From Folioceros fuciformis (lineage: Eukaryota): a stretch of 20,000 bases of DNA. The position numbers were made by a program, and so were the translations under genes. The stretch covers positions 131,897-151,896 of the forward strand of contig JBNGIO010005803.1 of the NCBI GenBank assembly GCA_049999805.1, given 5' to 3'. Below are positions 2,634 through 20,000 of this stretch, in pieces (within the stretch, counting starts at the first letter, position 1; the number at the start of each line of letters is the position of its first letter). The notes under the pieces were generated by a model, which worked only from the letters and a program-made list of their open reading frames with translations, was not told the DNA's origin and made no database searches.

Positions 2634-3206
2634 GATTGGCAGAGGCGCACACTGAACCCATGGACTCGGGCCTGACACGATCCAGCTGCAGCACACCAGG
2701 CCTGCAAGGTGCGAACTTGATCTCCAGTAGTCCTACTAACGATCGCTGCGGCATCGAACTTGTTAGCTGCTGGACACCCACATCAGCATTTGTGTCACGT
2801 TTCGTTGCCCATCCAGATGTCGAGCAGTCCAATCGTAGCGCTTGCACCGGAAACGGGCACAAACTGGAGTATTGTGCCTCCAATTCACGAGCTATGACGC
2901 ATGCATGTATTATGAGCTGTGGAGCATTGCAGCAGGAGGCGGTCTGACGAGTATGGTAACAAATTGAGATGCCTGCTGCAAACCTTGTTGCAGAGGTTGC
3001 AGAATCAGGAATTTTCTGCCACCCCTTATGGATCTGCAAGGTGTCGAAAGCGCTACGGGCGCAATTGCTGGCTCGCCGGAGCTGGGTTTTGGTCTCTTGG
3101 CAGGACAGTCTCGTGTGTGCCAACAAACATCCAAGTTTGTGCACGCAAGTCGAAACCATGAAGATGCCTGCTCTGTAACGTGATGTGACGGGAGGACGAT
3201 GCAGCA
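2634..3206. promoter_or_regulatory. 573-bp intergenic spacer between divergent PPR genes, probable shared/bidirectional promoter and 5' UTRs
   Basis: Positional only: it lies between the two divergent start codons. No core motif was confidently identified. Confidence 0.4.
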
Positions 3207-6200
3207 ATGATGCTGATCATGGCTGCCAGAGTCGTTTCACTTTGTTCGCAAAGAAGCAGAAGTCGACGCTGGCAACAGCCTTTCTGGATCTGGCAGAGGG
3301 AAATTGCTGGGACTGCAGGTCACGCTGGCCTGCTTTCAAGGTCTGAATTGGTAGCAGGAATGAGAGTGTCCAGGAGCTGCAGCAGTGAGGATGGACCCCG
3401 TGAGTACTTTTGGCGACAGTCTTCTTCTGAGCATATATGTTACAAGTCAGCTTGGGCAGACGCACAGCATGCTGCTTTCGAAATGCAGGTGGGTCAGCTT
3501 GCCCCTGCATTCAGCTGGACCTTGACGGATCATCCCGACCCTTGCAGATGTCCAGGATATGAAGGGATGGTGGATGGTGAAACAGTGAGCAAACTGTGTG
3601 AGCAGGGGCAAGTCTCCGAGGCTGTGGAGGCTCTGGGAGTTCTGGTGCACACAGATTGGCATATTCCACAATCTCTGTTTCATACTGTCCTGAAAACCTG
3701 TGCGGTGAACAAGCATCTGGTTCTGGGTCGCCGTGTCCATGCTCTCAGCGTGTGGAAGGGGTATGAATCGGACAGGTTCTTGTGCAACCATATGTTACGA
3801 ATGTATGCCTCTCATGGCAGGTTGCAAGAAGCGATGGATGTGTTCAACCAGATTGCAGAACCAAATGCCTACATGTGGTCCTCCATAATTTCCTCACACG
3901 TTAGACATGGGCAAGCTAAGCAGGGCATACAACTCTATAAGCAGATGCGCAAGTCGTCTGTGAAGGCAGATGGCCACGTGTTTGTGGCAGCCTTGCAGGC
4001 TTGTGCAAAGGGAGAAGACTTAAAAGCTGGTCAGCAGGTGCATACTGACGTGCTGGCCAGTGGAATTGAGCCCACTCTATTTGTTACTAATGGCTTAGTG
4101 GATATGTATGCAAAGTGTAAGAGTTTGGAAGATGCTCGCCGTGTGTTTGACGGGCTTGTCCACAAGGATGTGGTGACATGGAATGCCATGATAGCAGGAT
4201 ATTCTCAGCAAGGCATGGCTGCGGAATCCCTCCATCTTTACAGTGTTATGCAAGGAGAAGGCATTTTGACACCTAATGCCGTAACATTTGTGTGCCTTCT
4301 ACAGGCTTGTGCAGCCGTGGGAGCCCCGGCTCTGGAGAAGGGGAGGCTGCTTCATGCACAGCTTCGAGAACAGGGATTTCAGGATGATGCAGTTGTGGGC
4401 TGTAGCCTGGTTCACATGTATGCAAAGTGCGGCAGCCTTGAGGATGCTGGGAGTCTGTTCGACAGACTGTCGCAGAAAGATGTGGTGACATGGACTGCCC
4501 TCATAGCAGGGTATTCCCAGCAGGGTAGGGGAAAGGAAGCACTCCAGCTGTACAGTGAAATGCAAGACGAATGCATTGCTCCAGCCAACTGTGTTACGTT
4601 TGTGTGCCTCTTGCAGGCATGTGCATGTGTGGGTGTCCCAGCTCTGGAGAAGGGAAAGCAACTCCATGCACAGATTCGAGAACAAGGCCTTCAGGACGAT
4701 GCGTTTGTAGGTTGCGGCCTTGTAAACATGTACTCAAAGTGTGGCAGTGTCCAGGACGCTAAGATGGTGTTTGACAAACTTGGTAAAAAAGATGTAGTGA
4801 CGTGGACCGCTCTGATAGCAGGATACTCCCAGCAGGGCTTGGGTGAGGAAGCTCTTAATATCTACAGTGCTATGCAACAAGAAGGGGTCACTCCACCCAA
4901 TTCGGTAACATTTTTGTGCCTCCTACAGGCATGTGCGAACGTGGGTATCCTGGCTTTGGAGAAGGGAAGGCAGCTGCATGCTCAGATTGGGGAACAACTG
5001 TTTCAGGCTGATGTGTTCATGAGTTGCAGCCTGATGAACATGTATGCAAAGTGCGGCAGCATAGAGGATGCGCAATGCGTGTTTGACGCGCTTGTCCAGA
5101 AAGATGTCGTGACATGGACTACTCTGATAGCAGGGTATGCGCAGCACGGCATGGTTGAGGAAGCCCTCCATCTCTACATTGGTATGTGCAGGGAAGGTAT
5201 CACTCCAGTCGATTCTGTGACCTTCGTGTGCCTCCTCCAGGCATGTGCAAACGTAGGGGCTCCGGCTTTGGAAACGGGGAAGCTGATTCACACACAGGTT
5301 GGAGAACAGGGACTCCAAACTGACACGGTTGTAGGTTGCAGTCTGGTGAACATGTATGCCAAGTGCGGCAGCCTTGTGGATGCCCGGGGCGTGTTTGATG
5401 GGCTCGTTGATAAAACTGTGGTGACGTGGACGGCCATGATAGCTGGATATTCCCAGCAGGGTATGGATGAGGAAGCCCTCAATCTGTACAGAAGCATGCG
5501 AGAAGAAAGTACAATCCTCCCCAACTCTGTGACATTTGTCTGCCTCCTGCAGGCATGTGCAAGTGTAGCAGCATTGCATTCGGGAAGACAGCTTCATTCT
5601 GAGATTAAAGAAAAAGGCCTGGAAAGAGATCCCACGGTGGCCCTCAGTTTGATTACCATGTACGCAAAGTCCGGAAGCATGGTTGATGCACAGCTAGTTT
5701 TTGATAGATTGGCCGAAAGAGATGTCGTCATTTGGAGTGCGCTTATTGCAGGATATGCCCGTCAAGGAGCTAGTGAAGTAGTCTTCGACTTGGTTCACAA
5801 GATGAAGGAGGATGCCATACAACCGGATGGCGTTACATTCCTCGGTGTCCTGACAGTATGCAGTCATGCTGGTCTTGTGCACAAGGGACAGAAGTATTTT
5901 GAAACTATGAGCAGACACTTTGGCATCACTCCCTCTGCAGAGCACTACACCTGTATGGTAGATCTCCTGGGTCGAGCAGGTCATCTGTACGAGGCACTTG
6001 CAGTGATAAAAGCAATGCCTGCTCTGCCTCATGCTGCAACTTGGCACACACTGTTAGGTGCTTGTCGGAAGTGGGGCAACGTGGAGGTGGGACTCCATGC
6101 ATTCCATGAGGCAGTGAAGATAAACGAAAAGGATGCCGAAGCGTATGTGTCGATGTCAAACATATTTACCCGTGCCCAGATGTGGGAGGAGGCACAGAGG

Positions 6201-6425
6201 ATTCAGACCAGGAGGAAAGGACTTGGGGCATGGAAGCAACCAGGGCAGAGCCGGTGGACAGACATGGACGGACTGGTGCATACCTTTCTCGTCGGAGACA
6301 AAGAGCACCGCGAGACTGAAGGTATATATCTAAGGCTGAGGCAGCTCGTTTCGCAAACCAAGAGAGCAAAGTGTGCGGCTGTCTCTCCGGACAGGTGCTC
6401 AGCGGCTGTAGACTGGGAGAGCTAG
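3207..6425 (+). CDS. PLS-class PPR protein with E1/E2 and E+ (truncated DYW) C-terminus; putative organellar RNA-editing factor
   Basis: 1072-aa intronless ORF: basic N-terminal extension, L-S, six P-L-S triplets (312-bp period), P2-L2-S2 (AEHYTCMVDLLGRAGHL), E1 (AATWHTLLGACRKWG), E2 (AEAYVSMSNIF), PG box (WKQPGQSRWTDMDGLVHTFLVGDKEH). No HSE/CxxC/DYW. Alignment with the paralog suggests the true start may be ATG 3219 (MAARVVSL). Confidence 0.95.
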   Translation: MMLIMAARVVSLCSQRSRSRRWQQPFWIWQREIAGTAGHAGLLSRSELVAGMRVSRSCSSEDGPREYFWRQSSSEHICYKSAWADAQHAAFEMQVGQLAPAFSWTLTDHPDPCRCPGYEGMVDGETVSKLCEQGQVSEAVEALGVLVHTDWHIPQSLFHTVLKTCAVNKHLVLGRRVHALSVWKGYESDRFLCNHMLRMYASHGRLQEAMDVFNQIAEPNAYMWSSIISSHVRHGQAKQGIQLYKQMRKSSVKADGHVFVAALQACAKGEDLKAGQQVHTDVLASGIEPTLFVTNGLVDMYAKCKSLEDARRVFDGLVHKDVVTWNAMIAGYSQQGMAAESLHLYSVMQGEGILTPNAVTFVCLLQACAAVGAPALEKGRLLHAQLREQGFQDDAVVGCSLVHMYAKCGSLEDAGSLFDRLSQKDVVTWTALIAGYSQQGRGKEALQLYSEMQDECIAPANCVTFVCLLQACACVGVPALEKGKQLHAQIREQGLQDDAFVGCGLVNMYSKCGSVQDAKMVFDKLGKKDVVTWTALIAGYSQQGLGEEALNIYSAMQQEGVTPPNSVTFLCLLQACANVGILALEKGRQLHAQIGEQLFQADVFMSCSLMNMYAKCGSIEDAQCVFDALVQKDVVTWTTLIAGYAQHGMVEEALHLYIGMCREGITPVDSVTFVCLLQACANVGAPALETGKLIHTQVGEQGLQTDTVVGCSLVNMYAKCGSLVDARGVFDGLVDKTVVTWTAMIAGYSQQGMDEEALNLYRSMREESTILPNSVTFVCLLQACASVAALHSGRQLHSEIKEKGLERDPTVALSLITMYAKSGSMVDAQLVFDRLAERDVVIWSALIAGYARQGASEVVFDLVHKMKEDAIQPDGVTFLGVLTVCSHAGLVHKGQKYFETMSRHFGITPSAEHYTCMVDLLGRAGHLYEALAVIKAMPALPHAATWHTLLGACRKWGNVEVGLHAFHEAVKINEKDAEAYVSMSNIFTRAQMWEEAQRIQTRRKGLGAWKQPGQSRWTDMDGLVHTFLVGDKEHRETEGIYLRLRQLVSQTKRAKCAAVSPDRCSAAVDWES

Positions 6426-6991: not shown

Positions 6992-7559
6992 TGGACGGCG
7001 TTGCCATAGTTTGCGAGGTACATTCTAACCTTATGTGGCAAACACTTCACATCCCGTTTTTAAGTAAGGGTGTTTGTTTCCTTCAATATCAAAGAGAATT
7101 TCCCTTTAGTACCAAAGAGAAGTACAAAGGGCTCATTCTGAAGCTCACGTCAAGAGCTTTCTTCTGAATCAAGAATCTAAGTATACGAGTAAACATGGAG
7201 TCAGAAAATTATATTCAAAGAACGAGTTGCTTGCTATCTTCTTTGACACATAGCAAGACATATACTGAACCATAATAGCTTTTTCTGAAGCCTATAGTAA
7301 GACCATTTTTTCTAATCCATTCTTACACCCTAAGAATCAGTATAGACGCTGGTATAGACATTCAAAGAACTCATAACAAAGGATAAGTTGGTTTTCTTCT
7401 TTCACACACAGCTCGAGATATCTTCAACAAAAACATGGTACATATGACTCATTTTGAAGCTTGAATTGAGAGTGGTTTTTTAAATCAAGGCATGGAGTTT
7501 ATGGGTAAGTATGGAGACTACAAAAACCATTCAAAGATATGATGATAGAAGCTAGTTAT

Positions 7560-9693
7560 TGACGAAGATCACACTTGATTCTCATCTCACAGGAGGATCA
7601 CAGGAGGACTGTGGATTTCTCCTTTCTCATCTTCTTCAGATGCTTCTAGCTATTTGCAAGCTCAACAATGCTCTTTTCCCGTTTCAAACTATCGCCAAGA
7701 CCAATGTCCATTTTGTTGAGCTGAACAAAATTCAAGGTTTGTGCTCCACATAATCGAACTTCTACTTATCGAAGTTGACATAACAGAATGTTGGCTTCAA
7801 CATATGCATGCTGAAGCAAAGAAGGATTTGTAGATTGTACAAGATCTTGCAGTGCTTGAATGGTATACTCCCAGTCTTTGTATGAGCATTTTTATGGCAT
7901 AGCTTGAGGGTTGTTAGAAGCTTGCACCCCTTTAACACATGATGTGTCCTCTCCTACATGACAAGGTTCGGTGTTTGTTGAAGTACTATTACGTACAAGC
8001 GTGAGAAGGAGGTCCCGAGTTGAATGCAATTGCCCTTTCAGTTTGTAATACCTTTGCTTGGTGTTTGTAGAAAAAGCCTTGCATTCCTCTAAGACAATTG
8101 CAGCATGCCCTGTCCCCTACAAGATTGTAAATTGTGTACATCAACCTTTTATCTTTGCAACTTTGCACAAGAGCTGGTTCTTGATCGTTAGTAGGAAGTG
8201 TAACATAGTCCTCAGGTATAGAAAGAGAGCCCCTCACTACATTTTCAATAATCACCTCCATTGTGCTTGAAGCCATGTTGTGTTGTAAAGTGCTTGTGCC
8301 AATACACTTTGCATACTGTATCCGTTAGTGTATGGAGCAACAAATTCATACGCCGACCTCGTAGACAAATAAAATCATGGCTCAACATGGACTTTAAGAA
8401 GCCATGCCAAGCTTCAATTGATGAATTGCAGTCCTGGCCAGCATGTGGTATGGTCCTGGAATGCCACGTAGGTAGCACCCCCTCCCACTGATTCTTGAAG
8501 TACTAAATAAACTCTAGAGCTTCTCTTTCATAATCCACATATAAGTATTGTAGCATCTTCCTAGCCTTAGCTTCTGTGTGCCAACGACGAGAAACGTACA
8601 TGATGTCACCAAACTAAAGATTGCCACTCTTGTCCTCCACTGCATAACCTTAAGCAAAAGGTGACATAGCCAACATTTTCTAACATGCCATAAACATAGC
8701 AAGATTTGCACAGCCTCCCCCCATATGGTCCGTACACCACCTATTTCATCCACAAGGAAAGCACTGGGATACCATAGTGGACTATGATGCTGCATATGCA
8801 TTTGAAATGCATACAACCACGCCTAGATATCCTCCAGTTTACCACTATCCATGATAATCCAAGCAACAGGAACTCCACTATAGTAATTATCACAAACCAA
8901 CAAGGTGTACAAGTAGAACTTGTACTTATTAGTGTCAAAAGTGGCATCAAGGGAGATCACACTATTATTTTCAAATTGAAGCACCATAGACATGTGAAAA
9001 GCTCTTTGCACCCCTAGTGTAAAGGAGCTTGAATTGGAATGGTACCATACGATGTTATTGTGAGCTTCTATCCACATCTACACACTTACCTCATTATTCG
9101 GATGATACTGGTAAAAGCCTGTGGTAATAGCTGATGCAATGTTATCAATGTCATGAGGTTGAAGGAAGTCATCACGACAAGGTTCATAACCACATGTGAG
9201 TGCTTTCAAATCCACTCTTTGAACGTTCTTCAAATAGATTTGTCTTTTAGTGACTCCTGCAAAAAGTCTGTGTTGGAGAGTCTTAACATCTTGCCTTTAC
9301 GTTTCCTTGTGGTTTGAGATGCCTGTATAGCTAGCTCGTTGCTACGAAAATCTATTCCTCCAAAGACACACCAAGTATTGGTGTGCCTAAGCCAAGACCA
9401 CATGTTTTGTCTACGTACAACGTTAGTTTCCCTTGTTTTTTTATCAGTCTCTTTCCAGAACAAGGTAGGAAATGAGTGGTTTGTACAATCTCCGTGGAGC
9501 AAGCCCTCCACTCTATTCCACCGAATGATTGCGACATTAGACCACAACGGAGTACATTTTCTTTCAGGCAACACTTGTCAACCGATAACAAAAGAAGATA
9601 ATGTCAAATCAAGGACTCTGAAAGGATTTGCGGTGGTTCTCGTACCTCCCACCCGATCGTCCGATCAAGACCAACTATTGCTTCTACACTCAT
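7560..9693 (-). pseudogene. Decayed MULE (Mutator-like) transposase with SWIM zinc finger
   Basis: Fragments in several frames lie in the right order: N-terminal AIIRWNRVEGLLHG...PTLF...WCVFGG; SLDATFDTNKYKFYLYTLLVCD..SGVPVAWII (first D); PSAFLVDE (second D); LLCLWHVRKCW (CxxH); NSSIEAWHGFLK (E); CNCLRGMQGFFYKH (SWIM, third Cys lost). Multiple stops and frameshifts. Boundaries approximate. Confidence 0.85.
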
Positions 9694-9742
9694 AACTTGA
9701 AATGTTCGACACTTGATAGATCGACGTTCAGAGTGAGTGGTG

Positions 9743-9823
9743 AAGGTACTCATGAGTTTAAGCGATTGGTGAAGGCACTCATGAGTTTGAGTGCTTGGTA
9801 AAGGCACTCGTGAGTTTGAGTGC
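9743..9823. repeat. Tandem repeat, 29-bp unit x2.8
   Basis: AAGGYACTCRTGAGTTT... units start at 9743, 9772 and 9801, just upstream of the inferred transposase start. Confidence 0.85.
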
Positions 9824-10130
9824 ATAATGTAAGTGGAATATAGAGCCTAATAATGTTCATGGCATCATGATCCATTCTAAAAACAATTATGTTGTCCGTA
9901 GGCTTAACTACATATAATGATTGGATGGATGCATGGCCGTAAAGCCACCACCAGTATGCATCCCCATATGCTGGTGCATCCCATGGAAACAGGAAACCGG
10001 AATATGAGTGGTGTGGCCCACTTATGAAAACACGCATTAATAGTTTTAGTAATCAGGTGTACTACATGGATGGTTTCATTCAGGACTTTTTTTTGTGAAC
10101 GTGGCTCTAGATGAAGATTTGACTTCTATC

Positions 10131-10251
10131 ATCCATTGTCATTTTAATGAACTATTTTTTTAGGACTGCCTAGATTTGCTACTGTTGCCCATCCATTGTT
10201 ATTTTGATCAACTATTATTTCAAGACTACTTAGATTTCCTACTCTTTGCCC
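10131..10251. repeat. Degenerate tandem duplication, 60-bp unit x2
   Basis: ATCCATTGTYATTTT...ACTATT...GACTRCYTAGATTT...TTGCCC at 10131 and 10191. Confidence 0.8.
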
Positions 10252-10360
10252 TGTACTGAGCAAGGGATTGGGTTTTTCACCGACGAGTTCGGGATGTGGA
10301 CGTGGTCGAAATGACACAACACCTTGCTATGTAGCCCTAACAGTTATAACAACACTTTGA

Positions 10361-10627
10361 TGTGTGGCCATATCAATTATAAACGGGCCTCCATGAAAGG
10401 GTTGGTCTCCATAAAATTGGGGGATCAAGGCTTAGGATTGAGCTTTTCAACAACAAATTTTATTCCCACTTGCGAGAATTGGAATAGAGCTTTGTGTGGC
10501 CATATCAATTATAAACGGGCCTCCATGAAAAGGTTGGTCTCCAGAAAATTGGGGGATCAAGGCTTAAGATTGAGCTTTTCAACAACAAATTTTATTCCCA
10601 CTTGCGAGAATTGGAACAGAGCTTTGT
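10361..10627. repeat. Near-identical tandem duplication, 132-bp unit x2
   Basis: TGTGTGGCCATATCAATTATAAACGGGCC... starts at 10361 and 10493, with only a few substitutions. Confidence 0.95.
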
Positions 10628-10649
10628 ACGTGATCTAAATGACACCTTG

Positions 10650-10722
10650 AATTGGTGACTCTCAACAAATTGGTGACCCTCAACAAATTGGTGATTCTGA
10701 AGCAAATTGATGACCCTCAACA
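10650..10722. repeat. Tandem repeat, 18-bp unit x4
   Basis: AATTGGTGACYCTCAACA units at 10650, 10668, 10686 and 10705; one more isolated copy near 10804. Confidence 0.85.
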
Positions 10723-10859
10723 AAAGAACCTTCTCATTTTGTCCACCTATTTTGTAAACATGGCTTTAGATGAAGATATTGCTCATACAATTGACCATTC
10801 ACAAATTGGTGACTCTCATAATGCATTCGGTATTTCTCTTCATGCTTTGCATAATAATT

Positions 10860-11088
10860 AAGTTACCTCACAGGGAAGTTCTTGCACTTTCTCTAGCTTA
10901 CTTGTCCAATTTCAAGAAATTCAATAATTAGGTTATGAAGTTACCTCGCAGGAAGTTCTTGCACTTTTTCTAACTTACTTGTCCAATTTCAAGAAATTCA
11001 ATAATTAAGTTATGAAGTTATCTCGTAGGGAAGTTCTTGCACTCTTTCTAACTTTCTTGTCCAATTTCAAGAAATTTAAGAATTAGGT
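10860..11088. repeat. Tandem repeat, 77-78-bp unit x3
   Basis: AAGTTAYCTC...GGAAGTTCTTGCACT...CTTGTCCAATTTCAAGAAATT units at 10860, 10938 and 11015. Confidence 0.93.
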
Positions 11089-11885
11089 TTTGCAAGAATT
11101 TGGAAACACCCAACCACCTGTGAGTGTATTTCGGCCCTGAAGTCCACATCTAAGATTGCCAGTGGCCTTCGAGGAGGTTGGCCTTTCAACCATAAACACC
11201 TTTGCCCTAGCTACCTTCCTTTTTGGTTGGGTACTCTCGGCTCCAATTTTAGCCTCTCAATTTCTTCTCCAAGATTCCCCTCTTTTGGAGGACTTCATCT
11301 TGGGTTTGAAGAGGAGGGCTCTTCCTTTACAAGAATCTCTCAAGCAAATGAGAGACTTTTTACTATTGACGGCTTGAGAGGCCTTACTTTCTTTCACCTC
11401 GTTCCCTAGGGAAGAGTTGATGGTCTTTAGGCCTCCCTCGTAGAAAAGAAATCCGCCGCGCAAGTGCTGAAAGCACTTTACTTGAGCTTATCCATCCCAG
11501 GTCTTCTCGGGCTCATGCTCGCTCTTATTCTAGTAAAGGAGTGGGCTCTTGGCTTTTGGCTCAACTTTGCACTTAAGCTTTTTGAATTGCATCACCACCT
11601 TTCACAACTATAATGAGATTTCACCTTGGTTTGGCTCACGTGGTTTTTTCTCTCTACATGAAATTGTGAGGTTTTTGTTGTTGAAATTGTGAGGTTTCTA
11701 TTGTTGACTCAGGGTCCTATGAATGGCGTATTGTTCCATAAGGGAGGCACCCAAGTGTCACTCATGATCTAGTGGAATGTTATTTCCAATAGCTAGAGAG
11801 TGTGGTTTTCTTCTACACAAGGAGTGTTCAAATGCTTTGCCCAGTGGGGTTTGGCTCTGAGCTGACCGTTTTTTAACAAGGGTAC

Positions 11886-12108
11886 ATGGGGCACATGTTT
11901 ATATCGTTAATGTGGTTGTCATGGATCCCACTAGAAATTTGGTTTGTGAGCACATCATCAGCAACAAATTTCTAATTCTAATTGCCCACACCAATCGTCT
12001 GCCATATGGGGCACATTTTTATATGGTTAATGTGGTTGTCGCAAATCCCAATAGAAATTGGGTTTGTGAGCAAGTCATCATCAACAAATTTCTAATTGCC
12101 CACACACC
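11886..12108. repeat. Diverged tandem duplication, 120-bp period x2
   Basis: ATGGGGCACAT.TTTATAT.GTTAATGTGGTTGTC...TAGAAATT.GGTTTGTGAGCA...CAACAAATTTCTAATT at 11886 and 12006. Confidence 0.88.
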
Positions 12109-13127
12109 AATAGTGTGCGATATGGTACTTTCCATCTCGGCTAGGAACGCCTTGTGGTCGCCATAGCTACTAGCCATTGCACATGACTGCAATTTTAAAA
12201 CACAAAAGCTCAGGGTGAGCTCACACGTGGTTTTTTGTGGCACCAACGTCATGATATCACCCACCCACCACGCTCTCCTTCACGAAGTAGAACTTGGAGC
12301 TGGCGTTTGTGGTCTCCATAACAACTCCAATGTCCGAGTTTCACATCTCGTTTCAATTTGGCTCCCTCACTTGGGCAAACTATGCTGATCACTACTTCAC
12401 CTAGCCCATTAGTGTGTTTCATAACTCTACCGGTTTTTATTGAGGGCTCGCACGGGACTCAATCTTTGAGCTTTCTCTTGAATTATCTGCAAAGCAACAA
12501 AGAATTGGAAGAGGCTCATGAAGCCAATACTCAGTCCATTCAAAGGCTGGGAAGAATATGAAGGTAAGCATAGGCAAGGAGACAAAGCTATGTCCCGTAC
12601 TGCTTGACTAAGATATGGCGTTCTATTATGGCGCATGTTATATGCGTGGTAGCTCCAATGAAACCAACCACACAACTTACGGGATGCTGATCCTTAACAT
12701 ACTGGCACAATACATATGGAGCTTATCCACGAGAGGGATGGTGCTTAGCCGCCATTTTGTACGGGATGGGGTTCGTGGTCGGTTCTTATGAGAGTTTAGG
12801 GTACATGCTTCCTGTTAGTGAGATACCGTACATATACGACCTAGAGGCGTAGAACGGATAACCGTAGGTGCTAGTGGTGGACGGCCCACCGTTCTTCACC
12901 GTGCGGTGGAGTGGAGCGAACCTGGGGTAACGTGGATGATGACGACGGCAACGGCAGCACCACAAAGCAACATTCCGGAAACACGGCACGCACAGCCGAC
13001 GGCATTGCAATTGCTGTGTGTGGACAACCGTGGAACATTTTCACGACGAGAGTCTGGAACTCTGTGCATCTCCGGCAGGCTGTTGGTTGCGGTGATTTGA
13101 TCGCAGGCTGTGTTCTGTGTCCGGGAA

Positions 13128-14413
13128 ATGGCGCTGCTAGTGGGAGAGCTACAAGGATGCATGCGGTTAGGGATCGCGAGCGCCAACTGCAGTTCCCGGG
13201 GGCCTTGTAGCAGCGCAGATAGTGCGCCCCGGCAGAGATTTTGGTGCAGACCGGGGCACCTGCAGTGGGGGATTGCAACCAGGAGGCTCTTTCAGGAAGG
13301 AGGAGCGGAATTGCGTAGGGCAGAGGGAAGGCGGAGGGTTGGCGGATTGCTTTTGCAGGAGGAGAGGGTAGGGTGCTCGGTGCGGTCGAGCGCGACGCAT
13401 GATACTGCCGCGCAGCCCGCGGGATTGAAGGCAGGCAGGTATCCTGGAGAGAAGAAAGGGTTTGTGGAGGAGATGCGATTTGTGGCTATGAAGCTGCATA
13501 CGAAGGACCAGGCCAAGGAAGGGGAGCAGGAGGCGCAGACGCCGGTGGCCAAGTGGGTGCCGACGGTGGATGGTTACATTCAGTTTTTGGTGGACAGCAA
13601 GAAGGTGTACGATACCTTGGAAAAGATTGTTGAGGAGGCCGCTGACCCATCATGTAGGATACTTTTTTGTCTTGCGGGTTGATGTTGAGAAAGGTGTGGA
13701 GGCATGTGTACTGTCATGGTGGATGAGGTGTTAGATTGTTGTTGGCATGCTGGTTTCTGAGGGCCAGGAGGTCTGTTGTTTGCTTGAAGATGCTGTGTTT
13801 AGGAACACAGGATTGGAAAGATCAGCAGCTTTGGCACAGGATTTGGAGTGGTTCAGGAGTGAAGGTCATGACATCCCTGAGCCTGGCCCTGCAGGAAGGG
13901 ATTATGCTGATTACTTGCTCACTCTGGCTAAGGACGACCCGCCCGCGTTCATTTGCCACTACTACAATGTGTACTTCGCCCATACTGCTGGGGGCCGTTT
14001 TATTGGGAAAAAGGTACGTCACGGCCTGGCACGGAGAACCACCCTACACTGCCCTGCCATCTGCTGGGGGCAACAGCGGTATTTAACGATGCGTGCTGTG
14101 CTGTGCTACAGGTAGCGGACGATCTTCTGGACGGACGAACGTTGGAATTTTACAAGTGGGATGGAGATGTGAAGGAGCACTTGGCAGCTGTGAAGGAAAA
14201 GCTGAACAAGGTTGCTGAGGTAGGCGGCAGGGGTACTTACTCTCGTGTACGTTTTATTGAAAAAGCCTGCCCAAAGCGCACATGCTGATCGTGAACTCTT
14301 GTGGCGGTCAACAGGAATGGTCTAGAACAGCCAAGAACCATTGTTTGGAGGAGACTGAGTTGTCGTTCTCGTACTCAGGAAAGTTGTTGCGTCTGATAGC
14401 AACAGCGCAGTAA
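13128..14413 (+). CDS. HO1: Plastid heme oxygenase 1 (HY1-like; phytochromobilin synthesis), 318 aa, 4 exons
   Basis: Exons 13128-13653, 13790-14013, 14112-14219 and 14315-14413, all with GT-AG introns (136, 98, 95 bp), join in frame. The product has a transit-peptide-like N-terminus, then RYPGEKKGFVEEMRFVAMKLHTKDQAKEGE, FLVDSKKVYDTLE, FRNTGLER, AFICHYYNVYFAHTAGGRFIGKK, LEFYKWDG and KNHCLEETELSFSYSG, all characteristic of plant HO1 with the heme-ligand His retained. Confidence 0.96.
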
Positions 14414-15613: not shown

Positions 15614-17100
15614 ATGAGTAGGATCGATGCTAGAGGAGAGAGATCAAGAAGACGATAATTATATTAACGCGCACGCTCCTCTTAAATGAGGGAGGTGGCG
15701 GTTGGCCGCGTCCCATCGCCGGGACGGCGGTTGGTGTTTTAGGACACGACGTTTAGGTCGTGCCCGTTTACATGTGTTTACGTCGTATGACGTTTGACGA
15801 TTCGTTTATTTAACTATTATCTATTTAATATTAGCCTATAATTCAACCTTAAATTCTATATTGAGAAGCCAGAGCAAGTAGAGCTAGGAATGGAGCATGA
15901 GCCGATGCCCAGCAAAAATGATGTGTTTACTGGTAGGCATGGCAGCATGTCACTTGCTGATTTTGAAGAAAAATTCAGATGGGCGTTGGACGAAATGGTG
16001 CTGAAGTACAAGACCAAGTTCACCCCAGAGATGGCGTTGAGGAAGATGAGCACCTTCCTGGCTGGGGAGGCCTTGACGTGTTATCGCGACTACAAGGAGA
16101 AAATCATAGAGGAGTCACATGCTTTGACACGCGGGGGTAGGATGAAAGGAAGTCTGAAGGAGGACGGGATCATGGGTGGAGCATCAGCCTCAGCGGAAAC
16201 AGTCACATGTTTGGTCAATGACATATTTCAAAAGTTCGCTGAGATGTTTTCAATGTCACCCATTGAGAAGATCCAAGAACTTGCAAAATTTTTCATTAAG
16301 CCCAATGAACCATTGAGATTGGCTTACCTGAGATTACAACAATTGGTGAAGGGCACCAAGGTGAAGACCATGAGAGAAGCCGCTCAAATTTATATAGCGG
16401 CGTTGCCTGGGAGGCAGAGGAGAGTCATAGCTAACTTCTTACACATATTGCATGGTGCTGAATATGAGCTAGATCAAGCATACGAGATGGCAGAAAGGGT
16501 AATGAAGGCGATGTTGTCACTAACGTCTATTGGGAGGAGCATCATGTGCTGCGAACATCGTTGCATGCTCAGGTGAAGGGGTAGGGACGGTCTAGTCCAT
16601 GTGAGATGTCTCTAACCAACTCATAGAGAAGAACATATCCAGCAAATGAGAAGAATGCTAATAGTTCAGTAGCAAGCAAGTCAATACTCAAATGTCCCAG
16701 GTGTCGAGGAATGCATTGAGCCATTGACTGCAATTACAGGCAAGACAGGCCAAAGGAAAAGGAAACCTGGAGGGCATGTGGCATGATGGGACACATGGAA
16801 GCAGCATGCTGTCAATCGCATCCCGAACTCAAACCCAAGGGATTGAATGAAAGAAGTATGACCAACGCTGACCCAATCGCCAGTTACTCACGAAGGGCGT
16901 TGCTTGGAGAGGTGCACATGCTGCAGGAACAGCTGCTTGCTATGGGTGTGACTGTGAACAAGAGCATCGAGATGGGTGAGGAAGAATGCGACTCCGGTGA
17001 TGAAATGTGCACACTCATAGCGGAAAAAATGAACTTGACAGGGACAAGTGCGGAGTTTAGAACTGGAGTCAAGGCCAAATCATCGGGCACGCAAATGTAG
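15614..17100 (+). pseudogene. gag: Retrotransposon gag (disrupted) with two zinc knuckles
   Basis: ORF 15890-16576 (FTG...LADFEEKF...FLAGEALTCY...EPLRLAYLRL) is gag-like. After a frameshift come CPRCRGMH*AIDC (16693-16731) and WRACGMMGHMEAAC (16768-16809), both CCHC-type knuckles. An upstream in-frame ATG at 15614 is separated by an insertion. Confidence 0.75.
15655..15843. mobile_element. Small CpG- and hairpin-rich insertion flanked by ATAATT direct repeats
   Basis: ATAATT at 15655-15660 and 15838-15843. The interior is CpG-rich with several stem-loops and an AT-rich right end. Removing 183 bp joins the two gag-frame segments. Confidence 0.5.
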
Positions 17101-17317
17101 CCCGGCATGCCTCAGCCGTTTTGACAACTACAGGAGGAAGCTAAACCAAGCATGGAAGGGAAACAACCATCAGCAAATTGGATGTTTGAAGACATTATGA
17201 GCACACCGGTGATCAGTTTGTGTGATTTGGGAGTCAAAGGTGCGACACTCAAGCGAGTAATACGTACTTGGTCAAAATGGGAGCTGGACAGAACATAAGC
17301 TGTCGCAAGAATGCAAG

Positions 17318-18112
17318 GTGATCAAGGTGTTACAAGGTGATCATTTGAAGCCAGAAGCTAGGGGTAGAGGGGGCGTTGCCTTGGTAAGAAACCAAGGAAG
17401 AGAAATCACACTCAATGGTTTCGCTCCAGAAAATGTGTTGATTGACAGTGGGGCTGATCCAGTCATCCTAGGAGCTAGAGTGCAACGGGCACTGCAGTTG
17501 TTTGGAGAAAAGCTCGAAGCTAGCAATGTCAGGATCATGACTTCTGCAAGCACTGAGGAACAAGTACTAGGCATGACAAGGGAACCAATAAGCATCGAGT
17601 TCAAGCCAGGAACGAATGAAACGTGCATCGTCCGCGTGCAATGTTTGGTGTCAACAGCCATGAACTATGACATATTGTTGGGAGCGGACACCACTCATGG
17701 GCCAACCATGGGCGTGGACCTATTACATTCTATCGCATTCTACCGACCCGGATGGCAACAAGAGGATTTTATACAGGTGGCTAGCATACCTTTGGAGATG
17801 GCGAGGAATAGTGACAAACAAAAATGCGCACTGACCAGCATTTCCTATGCTACTCAAATCCCACATAGGGGGGAGTTATTGGTGGAGACGCTGGACCTCA
17901 TGAGCGAAGAAGTGGGAAATGAGCAAGAAGGACAGGTGGTTCTCGAAATTCAGGAGATGCCCGTGCTGCAAAGCAATTTAAATGTAGAGCGACAGCGGCA
18001 AGAGAAACGAATGGATGGTAGTCCAAGCAGTACATGTCCGGAAATTTGCTTGCCAAAGTCCAAGGAATTGAGGAGTGAAGAAGTGCTGATAAAAAACGAG
18101 GTCATAGCCTAG
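17318..18112 (+). pseudogene. Retrotransposon aspartic protease region of pol
   Basis: VLIDSGADPVILG (catalytic D at 17444) and the downstream YDILLGAD motif typical of retropepsins. Confidence 0.85.
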
Positions 18113-19046
18113 GCACCAATGGGTAAAGGAATACACCTAATGGAGTTACGCTCTGGAATCAGCAGTGGGCTGGACGTGGTATTGCGGTGTGGAATTCCGG
18201 TTAGAAAATATACATGTGTAGAAAGGGATGACTGAGCACGTGCAGTGGCCAAGGTACGCATAGTTGGTCTATGAAAAGAGTAGCTTGCTTGGCGAAGGGG
18301 CTATAAAAGGATGTATGAGCCGTCTTGCACAGGACATACAAATGGTCAGGAGACAGCAGTTGATGGCAATTGGATCACCAGTGGACATGTTACTAGTGGG
18401 ATGGGAGTGCAAATCCTTCTCCAAAGCGGGTCGCGGAAGTGGAGAAGGGCTAGATCAGGCAAGAGAAGTAATATGAATCCTTAAAGAGGTATAGCGGATG
18501 AACCCTTCACGCTGGTACATACTAGAGAATGTCTGTGGGGCCTTTGATCGACAAGAACGAGTAAGAAAGGATTATTCTCAGTTGCGAAAATGGCTTGGGA
18601 ATGAATTCATCATCGACGCAGTGCAGACGGGTTCATATGCACACCGCATTTGCAGCTTTTGGACGAACATCACTAGTGTGGAGACCTTGAGGCACCAGAG
18701 GAGGGCCACTCGACCGCCTGCGCAGCTCGTGGATGAAATTCTAGAAGAAGGCCGAAAGGCGCAAGAGGTAAAAAGGGGAGACAACCCTCCCAACTTTCTA
18801 GTCAATGTGGTAGGGGAACCAAGGAGGGCGTGGCCCACACTTTTTAGCAAACCACAATCCTATGCATTCAGGCATAACGGTGATGGGATGGTACTCAACC
18901 AAAAAAATGAGGAAGTCCGGGAGCTGTTGGTCATGGAACGGGAACGTGCAATGGCCTTCAGGACGGGCACGACTGCAACCCAAGGCATCACGGAAGCGTA
19001 CAGATGCAAGTTGGTGGGACAAGCGTATGACCTATGGTGTTTATGA
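18113..19046 (+). pseudogene. DNMT3-like C5-cytosine DNA methyltransferase domain embedded in retrotransposon pol (disrupted)
   Basis: Motif I IHLMELRSGISSGL (18131-18172); motif II YTCVERD; motif III/IV DI...VDMLLVGWECKSFSKAG (Cys 18408); motif VI YILENV (E 18525); motif VIII DAVQTGSYAHRICSFWTN; motif IX ERERAMAFRTGTT; motif X RCKLVGQAYDL. Stops at 18233, 18272, 18474 and 18492, and one frameshift near 18280. Confidence 0.9.
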
Positions 19047-19349
19047 TGGTTGATTTGGGTGGATATTGCCACGCAATTGATGAACTGTGTGCCAAGAGGA
19101 ATAAGAGGTTTACGGGTCACCAGAGATGACAAAAGGAAGCTTGTAGGACCACCGGGGGAGTTTCCACAAGGTGCTTGTGGAGTAGAAATCAATTCACCCA
19201 AAAGAGGGACGATGGATAGGCATGTTTGGCAAATCTGTCAAGAGTTACAAGAGGAGGATCAGCAAAGGATCCGAGTGATGTTAGAAGAGAACCGACAGGC
19301 CTTTGCATTTAGTTGGGAGGAGTTCGGCAGATATGATAAGATTAAGTTC

Positions 19350-19974
19350 AAAATCCTGACCAGCACCGATGAACCCGTAGATAGGTGAAGGCCTTGCCTT
19401 AGCCCCATGGAATGAGATATTGTCGATTAGTGTTATAAAGAGTTGGCAGTTGCAGGGCTTATTCAGAAATCCAAGTCCCAATACGCTGCTGCAATAGTTT
19501 TACCAATGAAGAAGGATGAAAATGGTGAGTGCACTAACAGACGCATGTGTGGAGACTATTGGGGACTATTGGGCACTGAATGATGTGACTCCCATGGAGA
19601 GATACCCTATGCCCACACCATATGAGATTTTTGATGCCATCGGAGAAGCTACTTATTTCACCATGCTTGATTTTCGATTTGGATTCAATCATATAGTCAT
19701 TGAGGAGAGTCACAAATGCAAAACCGCATTTTGGGGGAAAGATCAACTGTGGGAATGGGAGACAACGCCGTTCAGATTAACGAATGCATCGATATACTTT
19801 CAAAGGGTAGCTGACATGGAGCTGCAAGGTCTACCATTCGTCAGATGCTACATTGATGACGTATTGGTGTTCAACAACACTTTGAAAGAACATCTGGAGC
19901 ATCTGAGGATCCTGCTACAAAGACTGGCAGAGTCAGGATCAAAGGTACATGTGAACCTCCAAAGTTTGGGGTAG
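19350..19974 (+). pseudogene. Ty3/Gypsy reverse transcriptase (disrupted, partial)
   Basis: ELAVAGLIQKSKSQYAAAIVLPMKKD...RMCGDYW, then a 10-bp duplication frameshift, then ALNDVTPMERYPMP...YFTMLD..GF...KTAFWG...FQRVAD...RCYIDDVLVF (YIDD 19849-19860). Confidence 0.93.
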
Positions 19975-20000
19975 TAGTTTGTTTTGGTTGAAAAAGGGTT

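What the first reader, a model, noticed from the sequence alone, without database searches (positions are those of the whole stretch)
17318..19974. Gypsy retrotransposon carrying its own DNMT3-like cytosine methyltransferase fused between protease and RT
Seen: C5-MTase motifs I, II, IV (catalytic Cys), VI (ENV), VIII, IX and X lie in canonical order across 18113-19046. Motif I is in the protease frame, separated by one TAG at 18110. Motif X is in the frame of the RT N-terminus, separated by point stops at 19044 and 19386. So the ancestral element encoded a PR-DNMT-RT polyprotein, and this is not a chance nested gene fragment. Established: AHR...FWxN and ExER..GF...T signatures resemble DNMT3 (AHRARYFWGN, EMERVFGF); normal Gypsy pol has no MTase; DNMT-bearing retrotransposons have been reported from charophyte algae and dinoflagellates (de Mendoza et al. 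2018). Inference: this is a land-plant member of such a lineage. The MTase could be released by the protease inside the particle and methylate the new cDNA (self-marking, mimicry of host methylation, or protection). I cannot verify whether the family is already described in this host lineage.
Basis: partly seen in the sequence, partly recalled or inferred. Interest (0 to 1): 0.92.

Follow-up and report, generated by a model that had tools for sequence, protein, structure and literature searches.

The report
Dead DNMT3-carrying Gypsy retrotransposon copy
A decayed jumping gene in a land-plant genome once encoded its own DNMT3-type DNA cytosine methyltransferase between its protease and reverse transcriptase, and it belongs to a lineage already described from the green alga Klebsormidium.

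Summary
Window 17261-19949 reads protease, then a C5 cytosine methyltransferase (motifs I, II, IV, VI, VIII, IX, X in canonical order), then reverse transcriptase. It is collinear with intact 2138-2352 aa gag-PR-DNMT-RT-RNaseH-INT polyproteins from other assemblies.

The domain is DNMT3-type:
- A family profile hits DNMT3A at E 2e-26, DRM at 1.8e-13 and M.HhaI at about 1e-7.
- An AlphaFold model of the closest relative matches DNMT3A/B/C at TM 0.79-0.83, normalised to the target.

The host is a land plant: every organism named among the relatives of the neighbouring PPR gene is an embryophyte.

The kind is not new. Two Klebsormidium nitens proteins show the same PR-DNMT-RT order. They fall in the same DNMT clade as the window (support 100/99), together with Closterium proteins. 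This is the Gypsy-DNMT3 lineage of de Mendoza et al. 2018.

This copy is dead. It has 8 in-frame stops and 2 frameshifts, its RT homology ends at 19950, and conserved residues are lost. A bisulfite-like run suggests it is CG/CHG-methylated.

My six paper searches found no land-plant report, so I class it as a new member of a known kind. Enzyme activity and the target of the methylation remain inferred.

The parts
15842..16576 (+). gag-like ORF (244 aa) with no family match; probable 5' coding part of the element
   Evidence: ORF listed. Pfam gave nothing significant. A second, diverged contig of the same genome lies on 15863-17870, so this stretch is repeated together with the protease region.
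16720..17100 (+). gag C-terminal part with a degenerate CCHC zinc knuckle (16774-16809)
   Evidence: tblastn finds weak hits of the CCHC regions of P0192 (E 1.5e-4), P0164 (0.013) and P0080 (0.24) at 16765-16941.
17261..18109 (+). retropepsin-type aspartic protease ORF (DSG at 17438-17458) plus the linker to the methyltransferase
   Evidence: Pfam Asp_protease_2 and gag-asp_proteas score E 0.004-0.005, below their cut-offs. tblastn to the PR region of P0164, P0166, P0341 and P0080 gives 28-40% identity, with E from 2.6e-24 to 2.1e-19.
18110..18112 (+). in-frame TAG between protease and methyltransferase
18113..18232 (+). C5-MTase motifs I and II, in the protease frame, closed by TGA at 18233
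   Evidence: These align to GIVLVELFAGLGTGL...YTYVD of P0164.
18254..18263 (+). zone of the frame change (frame 2 to frame 0) inside the methyltransferase
   Evidence: The frame-2 HSP with P0164 ends at 18253. Frame-0 homology starts at about 18264.
18264..19043 (+). C5-MTase motifs IV, VI, VIII, IX and X (DNMT3-type), with stops at 18474 and 18492 and closed by TGA at 19044
   Evidence: One search found 599 relatives. Searches give 36-40% identity to the polyprotein DNMT domains. One search gives PF00145 at 19.3 bits. One search shows the family profile hitting DNMT3A at E 2e-26.
19047..19559 (+). linker and N-terminal part of RT, in the same frame as motif X; stops at 19386, 19413 and 19428
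   Evidence: tblastn to P0006 and P0163 runs up to ...RMCGDY. Stops are listed.
19552..19571 (+). 10-bp tandem duplication (2 x 10 bp) that shifts the frame inside the conserved RT motif
   Evidence: The sequence is read. 'GDY' is encoded in both frames.
19561..19949 (+). RT core (RVT_1), with YIDD at 19849-19872
   Evidence: Pfam RVT_1 scores E 2.4e-14, 54 bits against a cut-off of 29.6. tblastn gives 47-52% identity to P0006, P0163 and P0342, and 39% to K. nitens P0343. All these HSPs end at 19950.
19950..20000 (.). start of an unrelated, very high-copy repeat that cuts off the RT (inferred nested insertion)
   Evidence: In one search the summed contig depth jumps from about 20-55 to 68,157 in the last bin. 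Many contigs begin to match at 19948-19950 with unlike sequence before that point.

Best explanation
Window positions from about 15842 to 19949 hold the 5' part of a dead Ty3/Gypsy-type LTR retrotransposon. Its polyprotein once read gag (CCHC), aspartic protease, DNMT3-type C5 cytosine methyltransferase and reverse transcriptase, presumably followed by RNase H and integrase beyond a later insertion. It has the same domain order as the Gypsy-DNMT3 elements of the streptophyte alga Klebsormidium nitens and falls in the same DNMT clade. The clade also holds Closterium proteins and many unnamed environmental contigs. The copy sits in a land-plant genome, next to a heme oxygenase gene and two PPR genes.

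Shown here:
- the domain order;
- the DNMT3 affinity;
- the clade membership;
- the decay of this copy.

Inferred for the living family:
- The methyltransferase is translated as part of Gag-Pol.
- It is probably an active SAM-dependent C5-MTase, because its catalytic residues are kept across deep divergence.
- It acts on the element's own newly made cDNA, or on DNA near it. This is the hypothesis of de Mendoza et al. 2018.

This copy can make no enzyme. The host appears to keep it methylated at CG and CHG.
For: 1. Collinearity. P0006 aa 786-1016, 1037-1430 and 1428-1557 map to window 17375-18256, 18324-19559 and 19561-19950, in order. The same holds for P0342 and for K. nitens P0343 through PR, DNMT and RT.

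2. Pfam on intact relatives. P0006, P0163 and P0342 carry zf-CCHC, Asp protease, DNA_methylase, RVT_1, RNase H and integrase in that order. K. nitens P0145 carries zf-CCHC, PR and DNMT. K. nitens P0343 carries DNMT, RVT_1, RNase H and INT.

3. DNMT3 type. Profile A1 against the PDB gives DNMT3A 2e-26, DNMT3C 8.3e-24, DNMT3B 3.1e-23, tobacco DRM 1.8e-13, DRM2 1.8e-9 and M.HhaI about 1e-7. DNMT1 is not among the 57 hits. The AF2 model of P0169 (pLDDT 80.3) has DNMT3B/3A/3C as its top Foldseek hits, at E 1.5e-17 and TM 0.79-0.83 normalised to the target.

4. Trees.
- In the 124-row DNMT tree a branch with SH-aLRT 99 separates 29 rows from 95 rows. The 29 are all 20 rows with PR-MT or MT-RT order, 8 rows of unknown order and the window. 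The 95 are all 66 rows with RH-MT-INT order, 28 of unknown order and 1 odd.
- The careful 45-row tree gives 100/99 for the same split and places the window on the PR-MT-RT side.

5. Conservation in 123 family rows: catalytic Cys 121, Glu of ENV 123, the two Arg of motif VIII 122 and 121.

6. Decay of this copy. It has 8 in-frame stops and 2 frame changes. It differs at 8 of the 43 columns that are at least 85% conserved, including Arg to Cys in motif VIII.

7. It is not a one-off. A second, diverged contig of the same genome (depth 13 in X1 and 11.5 in X2) lies on parts of the DNMT region, about 18156-18222 and 18450-18790, and another lies on 15863-17870.

8. Host. All organisms named among the 120 listed relatives of the PPR ORF are embryophytes.
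Against: - Pfam PF00145 on the window itself is below threshold, at 19.3 bits against 22. A single-sequence search of the PDB found no methyltransferase.
- The window's position inside the PR-MT-RT clade is unresolved. It forms a polytomy and has a long end branch of 1.32.
- One row with a protease match (P0344) fell on the other side of the split.
- No host DNMT3 sequence could be put in the trees. A separate capture from a host gene is therefore excluded only by the shared architecture and signatures, not by a rooted tree.
- The residue before the catalytic Cys is Glu in 67 of 123 family rows and in the window, not the canonical Pro, which 47 rows have.
- The K. nitens Gypsy DNMT domain gave no detectable methylation in yeast.
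- LTRs, the primer-binding site and the 3' half are not in the window, so the LTR class rests on the pol genes alone.
Confidence: 0.88

Rival explanations
1. The family's DNMT3-like domain is not a DNA methyltransferase in practice. It could be a pseudo-enzyme or DNA-binding module, or an RNA methyltransferase, kept in pol for another role.
For: - The canonical Pro-Cys of motif IV is Glu-Cys in 67 of 123 rows.
- The KnitGypsy-Dnmt3 domain produced no detectable methylation in yeast (section 10).
Against: - The catalytic Cys (121/123), the ENV Glu (123/123) and both motif VIII Arg (122 and 121 of 123) are kept among representatives that share at most 50% identity.
- The authors called the yeast result inconclusive, because human DNMT3B was also negative.
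- SymbioDIRS-Dnmt3 domains did methylate CG in the same assay.
Confidence: 0.2
2. The land-plant element acquired its DNMT independently from a land-plant host DNMT3, converging on the Klebsormidium architecture.
For: - de Mendoza et al. 2018 document recurrent, independent captures (abstract and section 9).
- No host DNMT3 outgroup was available to me.
- The window's placement within its clade is unresolved.
Against: - The insertion point between PR and RT is the same, and the linker to RT is collinear with K. nitens P0343.
- The window shares family signatures that are absent from DNMT3A in the printed alignment: Trp two residues before the catalytic Cys, GSYAHR, and the long PRxALPTL...SxAFR segment.
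- The split that puts the window with the PR-MT-RT elements has 100/99 support.
Confidence: 0.07
3. The DNMT segment is a chance nested fragment of a host gene, or an assembly chimera, inside an ordinary Gypsy copy.
For: There is a frame change within the domain, and several stops, at the junction regions.
Against: - Intact polyproteins elsewhere have the same order within one ORF.
- Motif I shares the protease frame and motif X shares the RT frame.
- Contigs of two DNA runs of the same sample cover the junctions with 0 differences: 17842-18352 and 18761-19976. These runs may be the source of the assembly, so they are not independent.
- A second, diverged copy also covers parts of the DNMT region.
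Confidence: 0.02
4. The element reached the land plant by horizontal transfer from a streptophyte alga rather than by vertical descent.
For: - No named land-plant relative appeared among the proteins with names.
- The closest relatives, at 40-41% identity, are unnamed environmental or unannotated contigs.
Against: - No close donor is seen. The best identity is 41%.
- TE proteins are usually masked in plant annotations, so their absence among named proteins is weak evidence (the tool says so).
- The copy is old and decayed, and at least one more diverged copy exists.
Confidence: 0.15

Closest known systems
KnitGypsy-Dnmt3 of Klebsormidium nitens (de Mendoza et al. 2018, Nat Commun 9:1341, PMC5890265; outline, abstract, section 10 and passages of sections 6, 9 and 11 read)
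   Same: - It is a Gypsy-type pol with an unrearranged DNMT3-type domain inside the polyprotein.
- The order is PR-DNMT-RT, shown here on K. nitens proteins GAQ93235.1 (P0145) and KFL_009030040 (P0343).
- It is collinear with the window.
- It falls in the same DNMT clade, with 100/99 support.
   Different: - The host here is a land plant, not a charophyte alga.
- Identity to the K. nitens domains is only 32-35%.
- This copy is dead, whereas the K. nitens copies are reported to be under purifying selection (Ka/Ks < 0.2).
- The DIRS-like repeat arrangement reported for K. nitens (Fig. 4c legend) cannot be checked, because the 3' half is missing.
SymbioDIRS-Dnmt3 and SymbioLINE-Dnmt of Symbiodinium (same paper)
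   Same: They are retrotransposon-encoded C5-MTases. The DIRS ones are DNMT3-type, lie inside Pol, and methylate CG de novo in yeast.
   Different: They belong to different element classes: DIRS with a tyrosine recombinase, and LINE. The authors consider them independent acquisitions. The host is a dinoflagellate.
Host DNMT3A/3B/3C (animals) and DRM (plants)
   Same: They are the best solved-structure relatives by sequence profile and by fold. In the printed alignment with DNMT3A the motifs AHRxRxxWxN and ExERxxGxxxxxT line up.
   Different: - The element domain has no PWWP or ADD domains and is embedded in pol.
- The motif order is not rearranged as it is in DRM.
- It has Trp-(Glu/Pro)-Cys where DNMT3A has Ser-Pro-Cys.
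- It has a longer segment between motifs VIII and IX.
Gypsy elements with RT-RNaseH-DNMT-integrase(-PHD) order, found in Scenedesmus, Chromochloris, Haematococcus, Cymbomonas and many unnamed contigs (found here; I saw no name for them in print)
   Same: They carry a related DNMT3-like domain with the same signatures in a Gypsy pol.
   Different: - The domain sits between RNase H and integrase, often with a C-terminal PHD finger.
- They form the other side of the 100/99 split.
- All named hosts are chlorophytes.

Membership tests
C5 cytosine methyltransferase (Pfam PF00145) | Score at or above the Pfam gathering cut-off of 22 bits | tested here: not met
   The window read-through scores 19.3 bits, E 8.3e-4. 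The single ORF scores 13.4 bits. Its intact relatives pass at 30.5-58.4 bits. The shortfall fits decay of this copy.
C5 cytosine methyltransferase (Pfam PF00145) | Conserved motifs I, IV (catalytic Cys), VI (ENV), VIII, IX and X in canonical order | tested here: met
   Coordinates are and the alignment to P0164 and P0169. Motif I is degenerate in the window (ELRSG where the family has ELFGG), and the second Arg of motif VIII is Cys.
DNMT3 subfamily | Closer to DNMT3 than to DRM, DNMT1, DNMT2 or bacterial enzymes | tested here: met
   The family profile gives DNMT3A 2e-26, then DRM 1.8e-13, then M.HhaI about 1e-7, then DNMT2 8.8e-5. DNMT1 is not listed. The top Foldseek hits are all DNMT3A/B/C. 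This was tested on the family, not on the window sequence alone.
DNMT3 subfamily | Placement inside the DNMT3 clade in a rooted tree with all eukaryotic DNMT classes | not tested
   No reference DNMT sequences could be brought into a tree with the tools at hand.
Ty3/Gypsy LTR retrotransposon | pol order PR-RT-RNaseH-INT, with Gypsy-type RT | tested here: inconclusive
   PR and RT are present in that order. RNase H and INT lie beyond the truncation at 19950. Collinear relatives have RT_RNaseH, Integrase_H2C2 and rve after RT.
Ty3/Gypsy LTR retrotransposon | Long terminal repeats, primer-binding site, target-site duplication | not testable with these tools
   The 3' end is outside the window. 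No own genome is held.
Streptophyte Gypsy-DNMT3 (KnitGypsy-Dnmt3 lineage) | DNMT3-type domain between protease and RT of a Gypsy pol | tested here: met
Streptophyte Gypsy-DNMT3 (KnitGypsy-Dnmt3 lineage) | DNMT domain groups with the K. nitens element domains | tested here: met
   It falls in the same clade, with SH-aLRT 99 and 100/99. The exact sister is unresolved, and the tree is unrooted with respect to host DNMT3.
Streptophyte Gypsy-DNMT3 (KnitGypsy-Dnmt3 lineage) | Open reading frame with conserved catalytic residues (a functional copy) | tested here: not met
   There are 8 stops and 2 frame changes, and 8 of 43 conserved columns are changed. This copy is a relic of the lineage, not a working member.

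The most novel reading that the evidence does not exclude
A Gypsy-DNMT3 lineage survived the move to land, and intact, transcribed copies still exist in this host or in related non-seed plants. If so, land plants would harbour transposon-encoded de novo cytosine methyltransferases acting beside the host DNMT3, DRM and CMT systems. Three leads point this way. A second diverged copy covers parts of the DNMT region. The summed depth over motif I is about six times that of its neighbours. A contig from a run guessed to be RNA touches 18150-18192 and runs on into a paralogous motif I-II reading.
Probability: 0.2. Interest if true: 0.7.

Novelty: new member of a known kind. Interest (0 to 1): 0.42.

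Why it matters
Retrotransposons that carry their own DNMT3 reverse the usual picture of methylation as a host weapon. So far they are documented from dinoflagellates and from the charophyte Klebsormidium.

A relic of the same lineage in a land-plant genome shows that such elements were present in, or reached, embryophytes. This gives a concrete query for finding living copies in bryophytes, lycophytes and ferns.

The searches made here also show that the family is large. There are 599 representatives at the 50%-identity clustering level, and the family splits into two architectures. The PR-DNMT-RT form has streptophyte-alga named hosts. The RNaseH-DNMT-INT(-PHD) form has chlorophyte named hosts.

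For this locus itself the result is modest. It is a dead copy that appears to be methylated by the host.

Tried and rejected
- Own genome. None is held, so copy number, intact copies and LTRs could not be studied.
- Pfam on the 8 separate ORFs. Only RVT_1 passed.
- phmmer of the window's DNMT segment against the PDB. The single hit was a pyridoxal kinase at E 0.62. The family profile was needed.
- The search for homologous proteins with the single sequence, option 'longer'. It returned only 6 hits, none with an organism name.
- Metagenome locus scan with P0167. It returned one 1298-nt locus (L001) covering gag only, so the DNA of relatives could not be read.
- Idea: the frame change at about 19560 is a native ORF1/ORF2 boundary with programmed +1 frameshifting, because the P0164-type ORFs end about 130 aa after the DNMT. 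Rejected. The change lies inside the conserved RT motif and coincides with a 10-bp tandem duplication.
- Primer-binding-site motif search. It gave 3 matches, none in the element, against 1.9 expected by chance.
- ESM Atlas. It returned only generic PF00145 clusters (Streptophyta, Chlorophyta, viruses).
- Sequencing runs. No RNA holder is listed, so this says nothing on expression.
- The contig in X4, a run only guessed to be RNA, that touches 18150-18192 is a lead, not evidence of transcription.
- Earlier findings of this scan by place and by sequence: nothing.
- Paper searches for a land-plant Gypsy-DNMT3 report found none. Supplements of de Mendoza 2018 and of PMC12344493 were not seen and may list more hosts.
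- No dN/dS could be computed, because no DNA of other copies was obtainable.
Full report
**What is in the window**

ORFs were listed from stop to stop under the standard code. On the + strand from 15.8 kb to the window's end they give a gag-like ORF (15842-16576), a second gag piece (16720-17100), a 283-aa ORF with a DSG aspartic-protease motif (17261-18112), three short ORFs (18113-18235, 18264-18476, 18495-19046), a 113-aa ORF (19047-19388) and a 154-aa ORF (19510-19974).

Pfam on the 8 pieces taken separately passes threshold only for RVT_1 on the last one (E 2.4e-14, 54 bits). The protease models score E 0.004-0.005 and PF00145 scores E 0.052, all below their cut-offs.

I also read the frames through with X at each stop. 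On the frame-0 stretch 18264-19583 PF00145 then reaches 19.3 bits (E 8.3e-4), still under the cut-off of 22. A single-sequence search of the PDB found no methyltransferase.

**Relatives settle it**

I searched the 260-residue read-through of 18264-19043 with HMMER against 1.84 billion cluster representatives. It found 599 proteins at E<=1e-3, 338 at <=1e-10 and 27 at <=1e-30, with a best hit of 6.5e-38. In many hits the match lies deep inside proteins of 1000-3400 residues.

Pfam on these long proteins shows two architectures:
- P0006 (2188 aa), P0163 (2138 aa) and P0342 (2352 aa) read zf-CCHC, aspartic protease, DNA_methylase, RVT_1, RNase H, integrase. This is the order proposed for the window.
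- P0009, P0014 and P0026 read RVT_1, RNase H, DNA_methylase, integrase. P0009 and P0026 also carry a PHD finger.

tblastn of the first kind onto the window is collinear across the three frames. P0006 aa 786-1016 map to 17375-18256, aa 1037-1430 to 18324-19559 and aa 1428-1557 to 19561-19950. The same holds for P0342. The ancestral element therefore encoded a PR-DNMT-RT polyprotein, and the DNMT piece is not a chance nested fragment.

**Anatomy and damage**

Along the reading path there are in-frame stops at 18110, 18233, 18474, 18492, 19044, 19386, 19413 and 19428. There are two frame changes:
- one between 18254 and 18263, between motifs II and IV;
- one at 19552-19571, where a 10-bp unit is tandemly duplicated inside the conserved RT motif, so that 'GDY' is encoded in both frames.

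I had considered that this second frame change might be a native ORF boundary with programmed frameshifting. Its place inside the RT motif rules that out.

Compared with its closest relatives the window also lacks about ten residues between motifs IV and VI. It differs from the family at 8 of the 43 columns that are at least 85% conserved, including Arg to Cys in motif VIII.

Every RT alignment stops at 19950, about 18 residues short of the end of RVT_1 in the relatives. At the same position the summed contig depth jumps from tens to about 68,000. Many contigs start to match there, with unlike sequence before that point. I infer that a very high-copy repeat is inserted at 19950. The copy is dead.

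**DNMT3 or not**

A profile of 26 family sequences (A1) hits solved DNMT3A at E 2e-26, DNMT3C at 8.3e-24, DNMT3B at 3.1e-23, tobacco DRM at 1.8e-13, Arabidopsis DRM2 at 1.8e-9, M.HhaI at about 1e-7 and DNMT2 at about 9e-5. DNMT1 is not among the 57 hits.

An AlphaFold2 model of P0169, the closest relative, has mean pLDDT 80.3 and is above 90 over most of residues 20-385. Its best Foldseek PDB matches are DNMT3B, DNMT3A and DNMT3C, at E 1.5e-17 and TM 0.79-0.83 normalised to the target.

The family has its own signatures. Trp sits two residues before the catalytic Cys. The residue just before the Cys is Glu in 67 and Pro in 47 of 123 rows, and the window has Glu. GSYAHR and a longer segment between motifs VIII and IX are also typical.

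Catalytic residues are kept across the family: Cys 121/123, ENV Glu 123/123, motif VIII Arg 122/123 and 121/123. The rows are representatives clustered at 50% identity, so this argues for long-term selection on catalysis. It is not a dN/dS test.

**Which lineage**

I annotated PR, RT, RNase H, INT and MT with HMMs built from P0006 segments, over 209 family proteins. That set includes cluster members, so the counts are not independent:

| Order | Proteins |
|---|---|
| PR-MT, PR-MT-RT(-RH-INT) or MT-RT... | 39 |
| (PR-)RT-RH-MT-INT or parts of it | 78 |
| MT alone | 68 |
| PR-MT-INT | 1 |
| no MT match | 23 |

I then built a DNMT-domain tree of 124 rows. I kept only representatives P0004-P0153 and P0164-P0168 whose MT match spans at least 75% of the model, plus the window. 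The other 32 of those 155 were left out. A branch with SH-aLRT 99 separates two groups:
- all 20 rows of the first order, 8 of unknown order and the window;
- all 66 rows of the second order, 28 of unknown order and 1 odd.

A careful tree of 45 rows (LG+C20 PMSF) gives 100/99 for the same split. Inside the PR-MT-RT side the window is an unresolved long branch. It stands beside a Klebsormidium group, a Closterium group and a group of unnamed contigs. One added row with a protease match (P0344) fell on the other side.

Few proteins carry names:
- PR-MT-RT side: GAQ93235.1 and KFL_009030040 of Klebsormidium nitens, and seven proteins of Closterium strains NIES-53, -54, -65 and -68.
- Other side: Scenedesmus sp. 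PABB004, Chromochloris zofingiensis, Haematococcus lacustris and Cymbomonas tetramitiformis.

The two K. nitens proteins together show zf-CCHC, PR, DNMT and DNMT, RVT_1, RNase H, INT. KFL_009030040 is collinear with the window through PR, DNMT, linker and RT. The window element therefore belongs with the KnitGypsy-Dnmt3 elements described by de Mendoza et al. 2018 (PMC5890265).

**Host**

Two head-to-head PLS-type PPR genes (3-2732 minus strand, 3189-6425 plus strand) and a heme oxygenase exon (PF01126, 24.3 bits) lie on the same contig.

Among the 120 listed relatives of the PPR ORF, every organism named is an embryophyte: Cryptomeria, Adiantum, Diphasiastrum, Calypogeia, Ceratopteris, Selaginella and Centaurea. 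Identities run up to 47% for Diphasiastrum. I recall, from no call, that expansion of PLS-class PPR genes is a land-plant trait. I did not try to name the species.

**Other copies and methylation**

Two DNA runs of one sample hold the stretch (0.97 and 0.93 of the sampled words). They may be its source, so they are not independent.

I laid reads at 80% likeness. This shows:
- besides exact contigs, a 3711-nt contig at about 83% identity over 15863-17870;
- another diverged contig (depth 13 in X1, 11.5 in X2) over parts of the DNMT region;
- a summed depth about six times higher over motif I (18056-18196).

At least one further copy in this genome therefore carries the DNMT segment.

A third run of the same sample shows 302 C>T among 343 listed changes, which looks like bisulfite or enzymatic conversion. 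For seven of its contigs the number of differing letters nearly equals the number of CHH cytosines on the + strand: 86 vs 88, 118 vs 124, 37 vs 38, 38 vs 41, 19 vs 22, 21 vs 21 and 28 vs 24. In 18056-18340 the listed conversions hit 22 of 25 CHH, 1 of 10 CHG and 0 of 9 CG sites.

From this I infer that the copy is methylated at CG and CHG and largely unmethylated at CHH. The caveats are that these are consensus contigs and that the table of differences was truncated.

Differences between copies are mostly transitions. In X1, A>G 106, G>A 104, C>T 89 and T>C 72, against 9-24 for each transversion. CpG observed/expected is 0.57 in the element, which is not lower than in the neighbouring PPR genes at 0.49.

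**How it works**

For this locus: it does nothing enzymatic. It is a silenced relic.

For the living family the steps are inferred:
- translation as part of Gag-Pol;
- possible release by the element's protease, which is untested;
- SAM-dependent C5 methylation.

The target is unknown. It could be the element's own cDNA, as de Mendoza et al. proposed for Pol-embedded DNMTs in their discussion.

In their yeast assay the SymbioDIRS-Dnmt3 domains methylated CG. The KnitGypsy-Dnmt3 domain gave no detectable methylation. The authors call this inconclusive, because human DNMT3B was negative too. The frequent Glu in place of the canonical Pro before the catalytic Cys leaves room for altered chemistry or substrate.

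**Novelty**

The kind is in print.
- de Mendoza et al. 2018 describe it.
- A 2025 paper (PMC12344493, passages read) and a 2026 preprint (10.64898/2026.05.21.726589, passages read) both refer to retrotransposon-embedded DNMT3 'in streptophytes'.

Six full-text searches turned up no report of such an element in a land plant. I could not see supplements, which may list more hosts.

I therefore class the finding as a new member of a known kind. It extends the host range into embryophytes, but it is represented here by a dead copy.

Noticed in passing
window 19950-20000: A very high-copy repeat begins at 19950 (TGTGAACC...). Summed contig depth is about 68,000 in X1 against 20-55 over the element, and many contigs start matching there with unlike upstream sequence. 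It probably marks the end of another element inserted into the RT.
   Followed up: partly
window 15800-19963 (run X3): A run of the same sample behaves like bisulfite or EM-seq data: 302 of 343 listed changes are C>T. Converted sites are almost all CHH, while CG and CHG sites stay C. This suggests that the host keeps the relic CG/CHG-methylated.
   Followed up: partly
window 3-2732 (-) and 3189-6425 (+): Two divergently oriented PLS-type PPR genes of about 910 aa (running off the window's edge) and 1078 aa. They are inverted duplicates of each other (arms 70-78% complementary). Each has five 312-nt internal repeats, and the second has a C-terminal extension.
   Followed up: partly
window 13100-14300 (+): Exons of a heme oxygenase gene (PF01126, 24.3 bits, on 13735-14112) lie about 1.5 kb upstream of the element.
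   Followed up: partly
window 7000-12000: An AT-rich stretch (GC 0.38-0.43) with tandem repeats: 132 nt x2 at 10361-10624, 77 nt x3 at 10874-11105 and 92 nt x2 at 11886-12097. Its minus-strand ORFs (7989-8324, 8514-8822, 9230-9577) have no Pfam match. It may be another decayed mobile element.
   Followed up: partly
proteins P0009, P0014, P0026, P0011, P0117, P0376-P0380 (not in the window): A second, larger group of Gypsy polyproteins carries a related DNMT3-like domain between RNase H and integrase, often with a C-terminal PHD finger. Named hosts are all chlorophytes (Scenedesmus, Chromochloris, Haematococcus, Cymbomonas). I found no description of this architecture in the papers I read.
   Followed up: partly
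family alignment: In the retrotransposon DNMT3-like family the canonical Pro-Cys of motif IV is Glu-Cys in 67 of 123 rows and Pro-Cys in 47. It is almost always preceded by Trp.
   Followed up: partly
window 18150-18192 (X1, X2, X4): A contig that matches only these 43 bases runs on, on both sides, into a paralogous motif I-II reading. The same contig ends occur in a run guessed to be RNA. It may be another, possibly transcribed, DNMT-bearing copy or a host DNMT3 gene.
   Followed up: no
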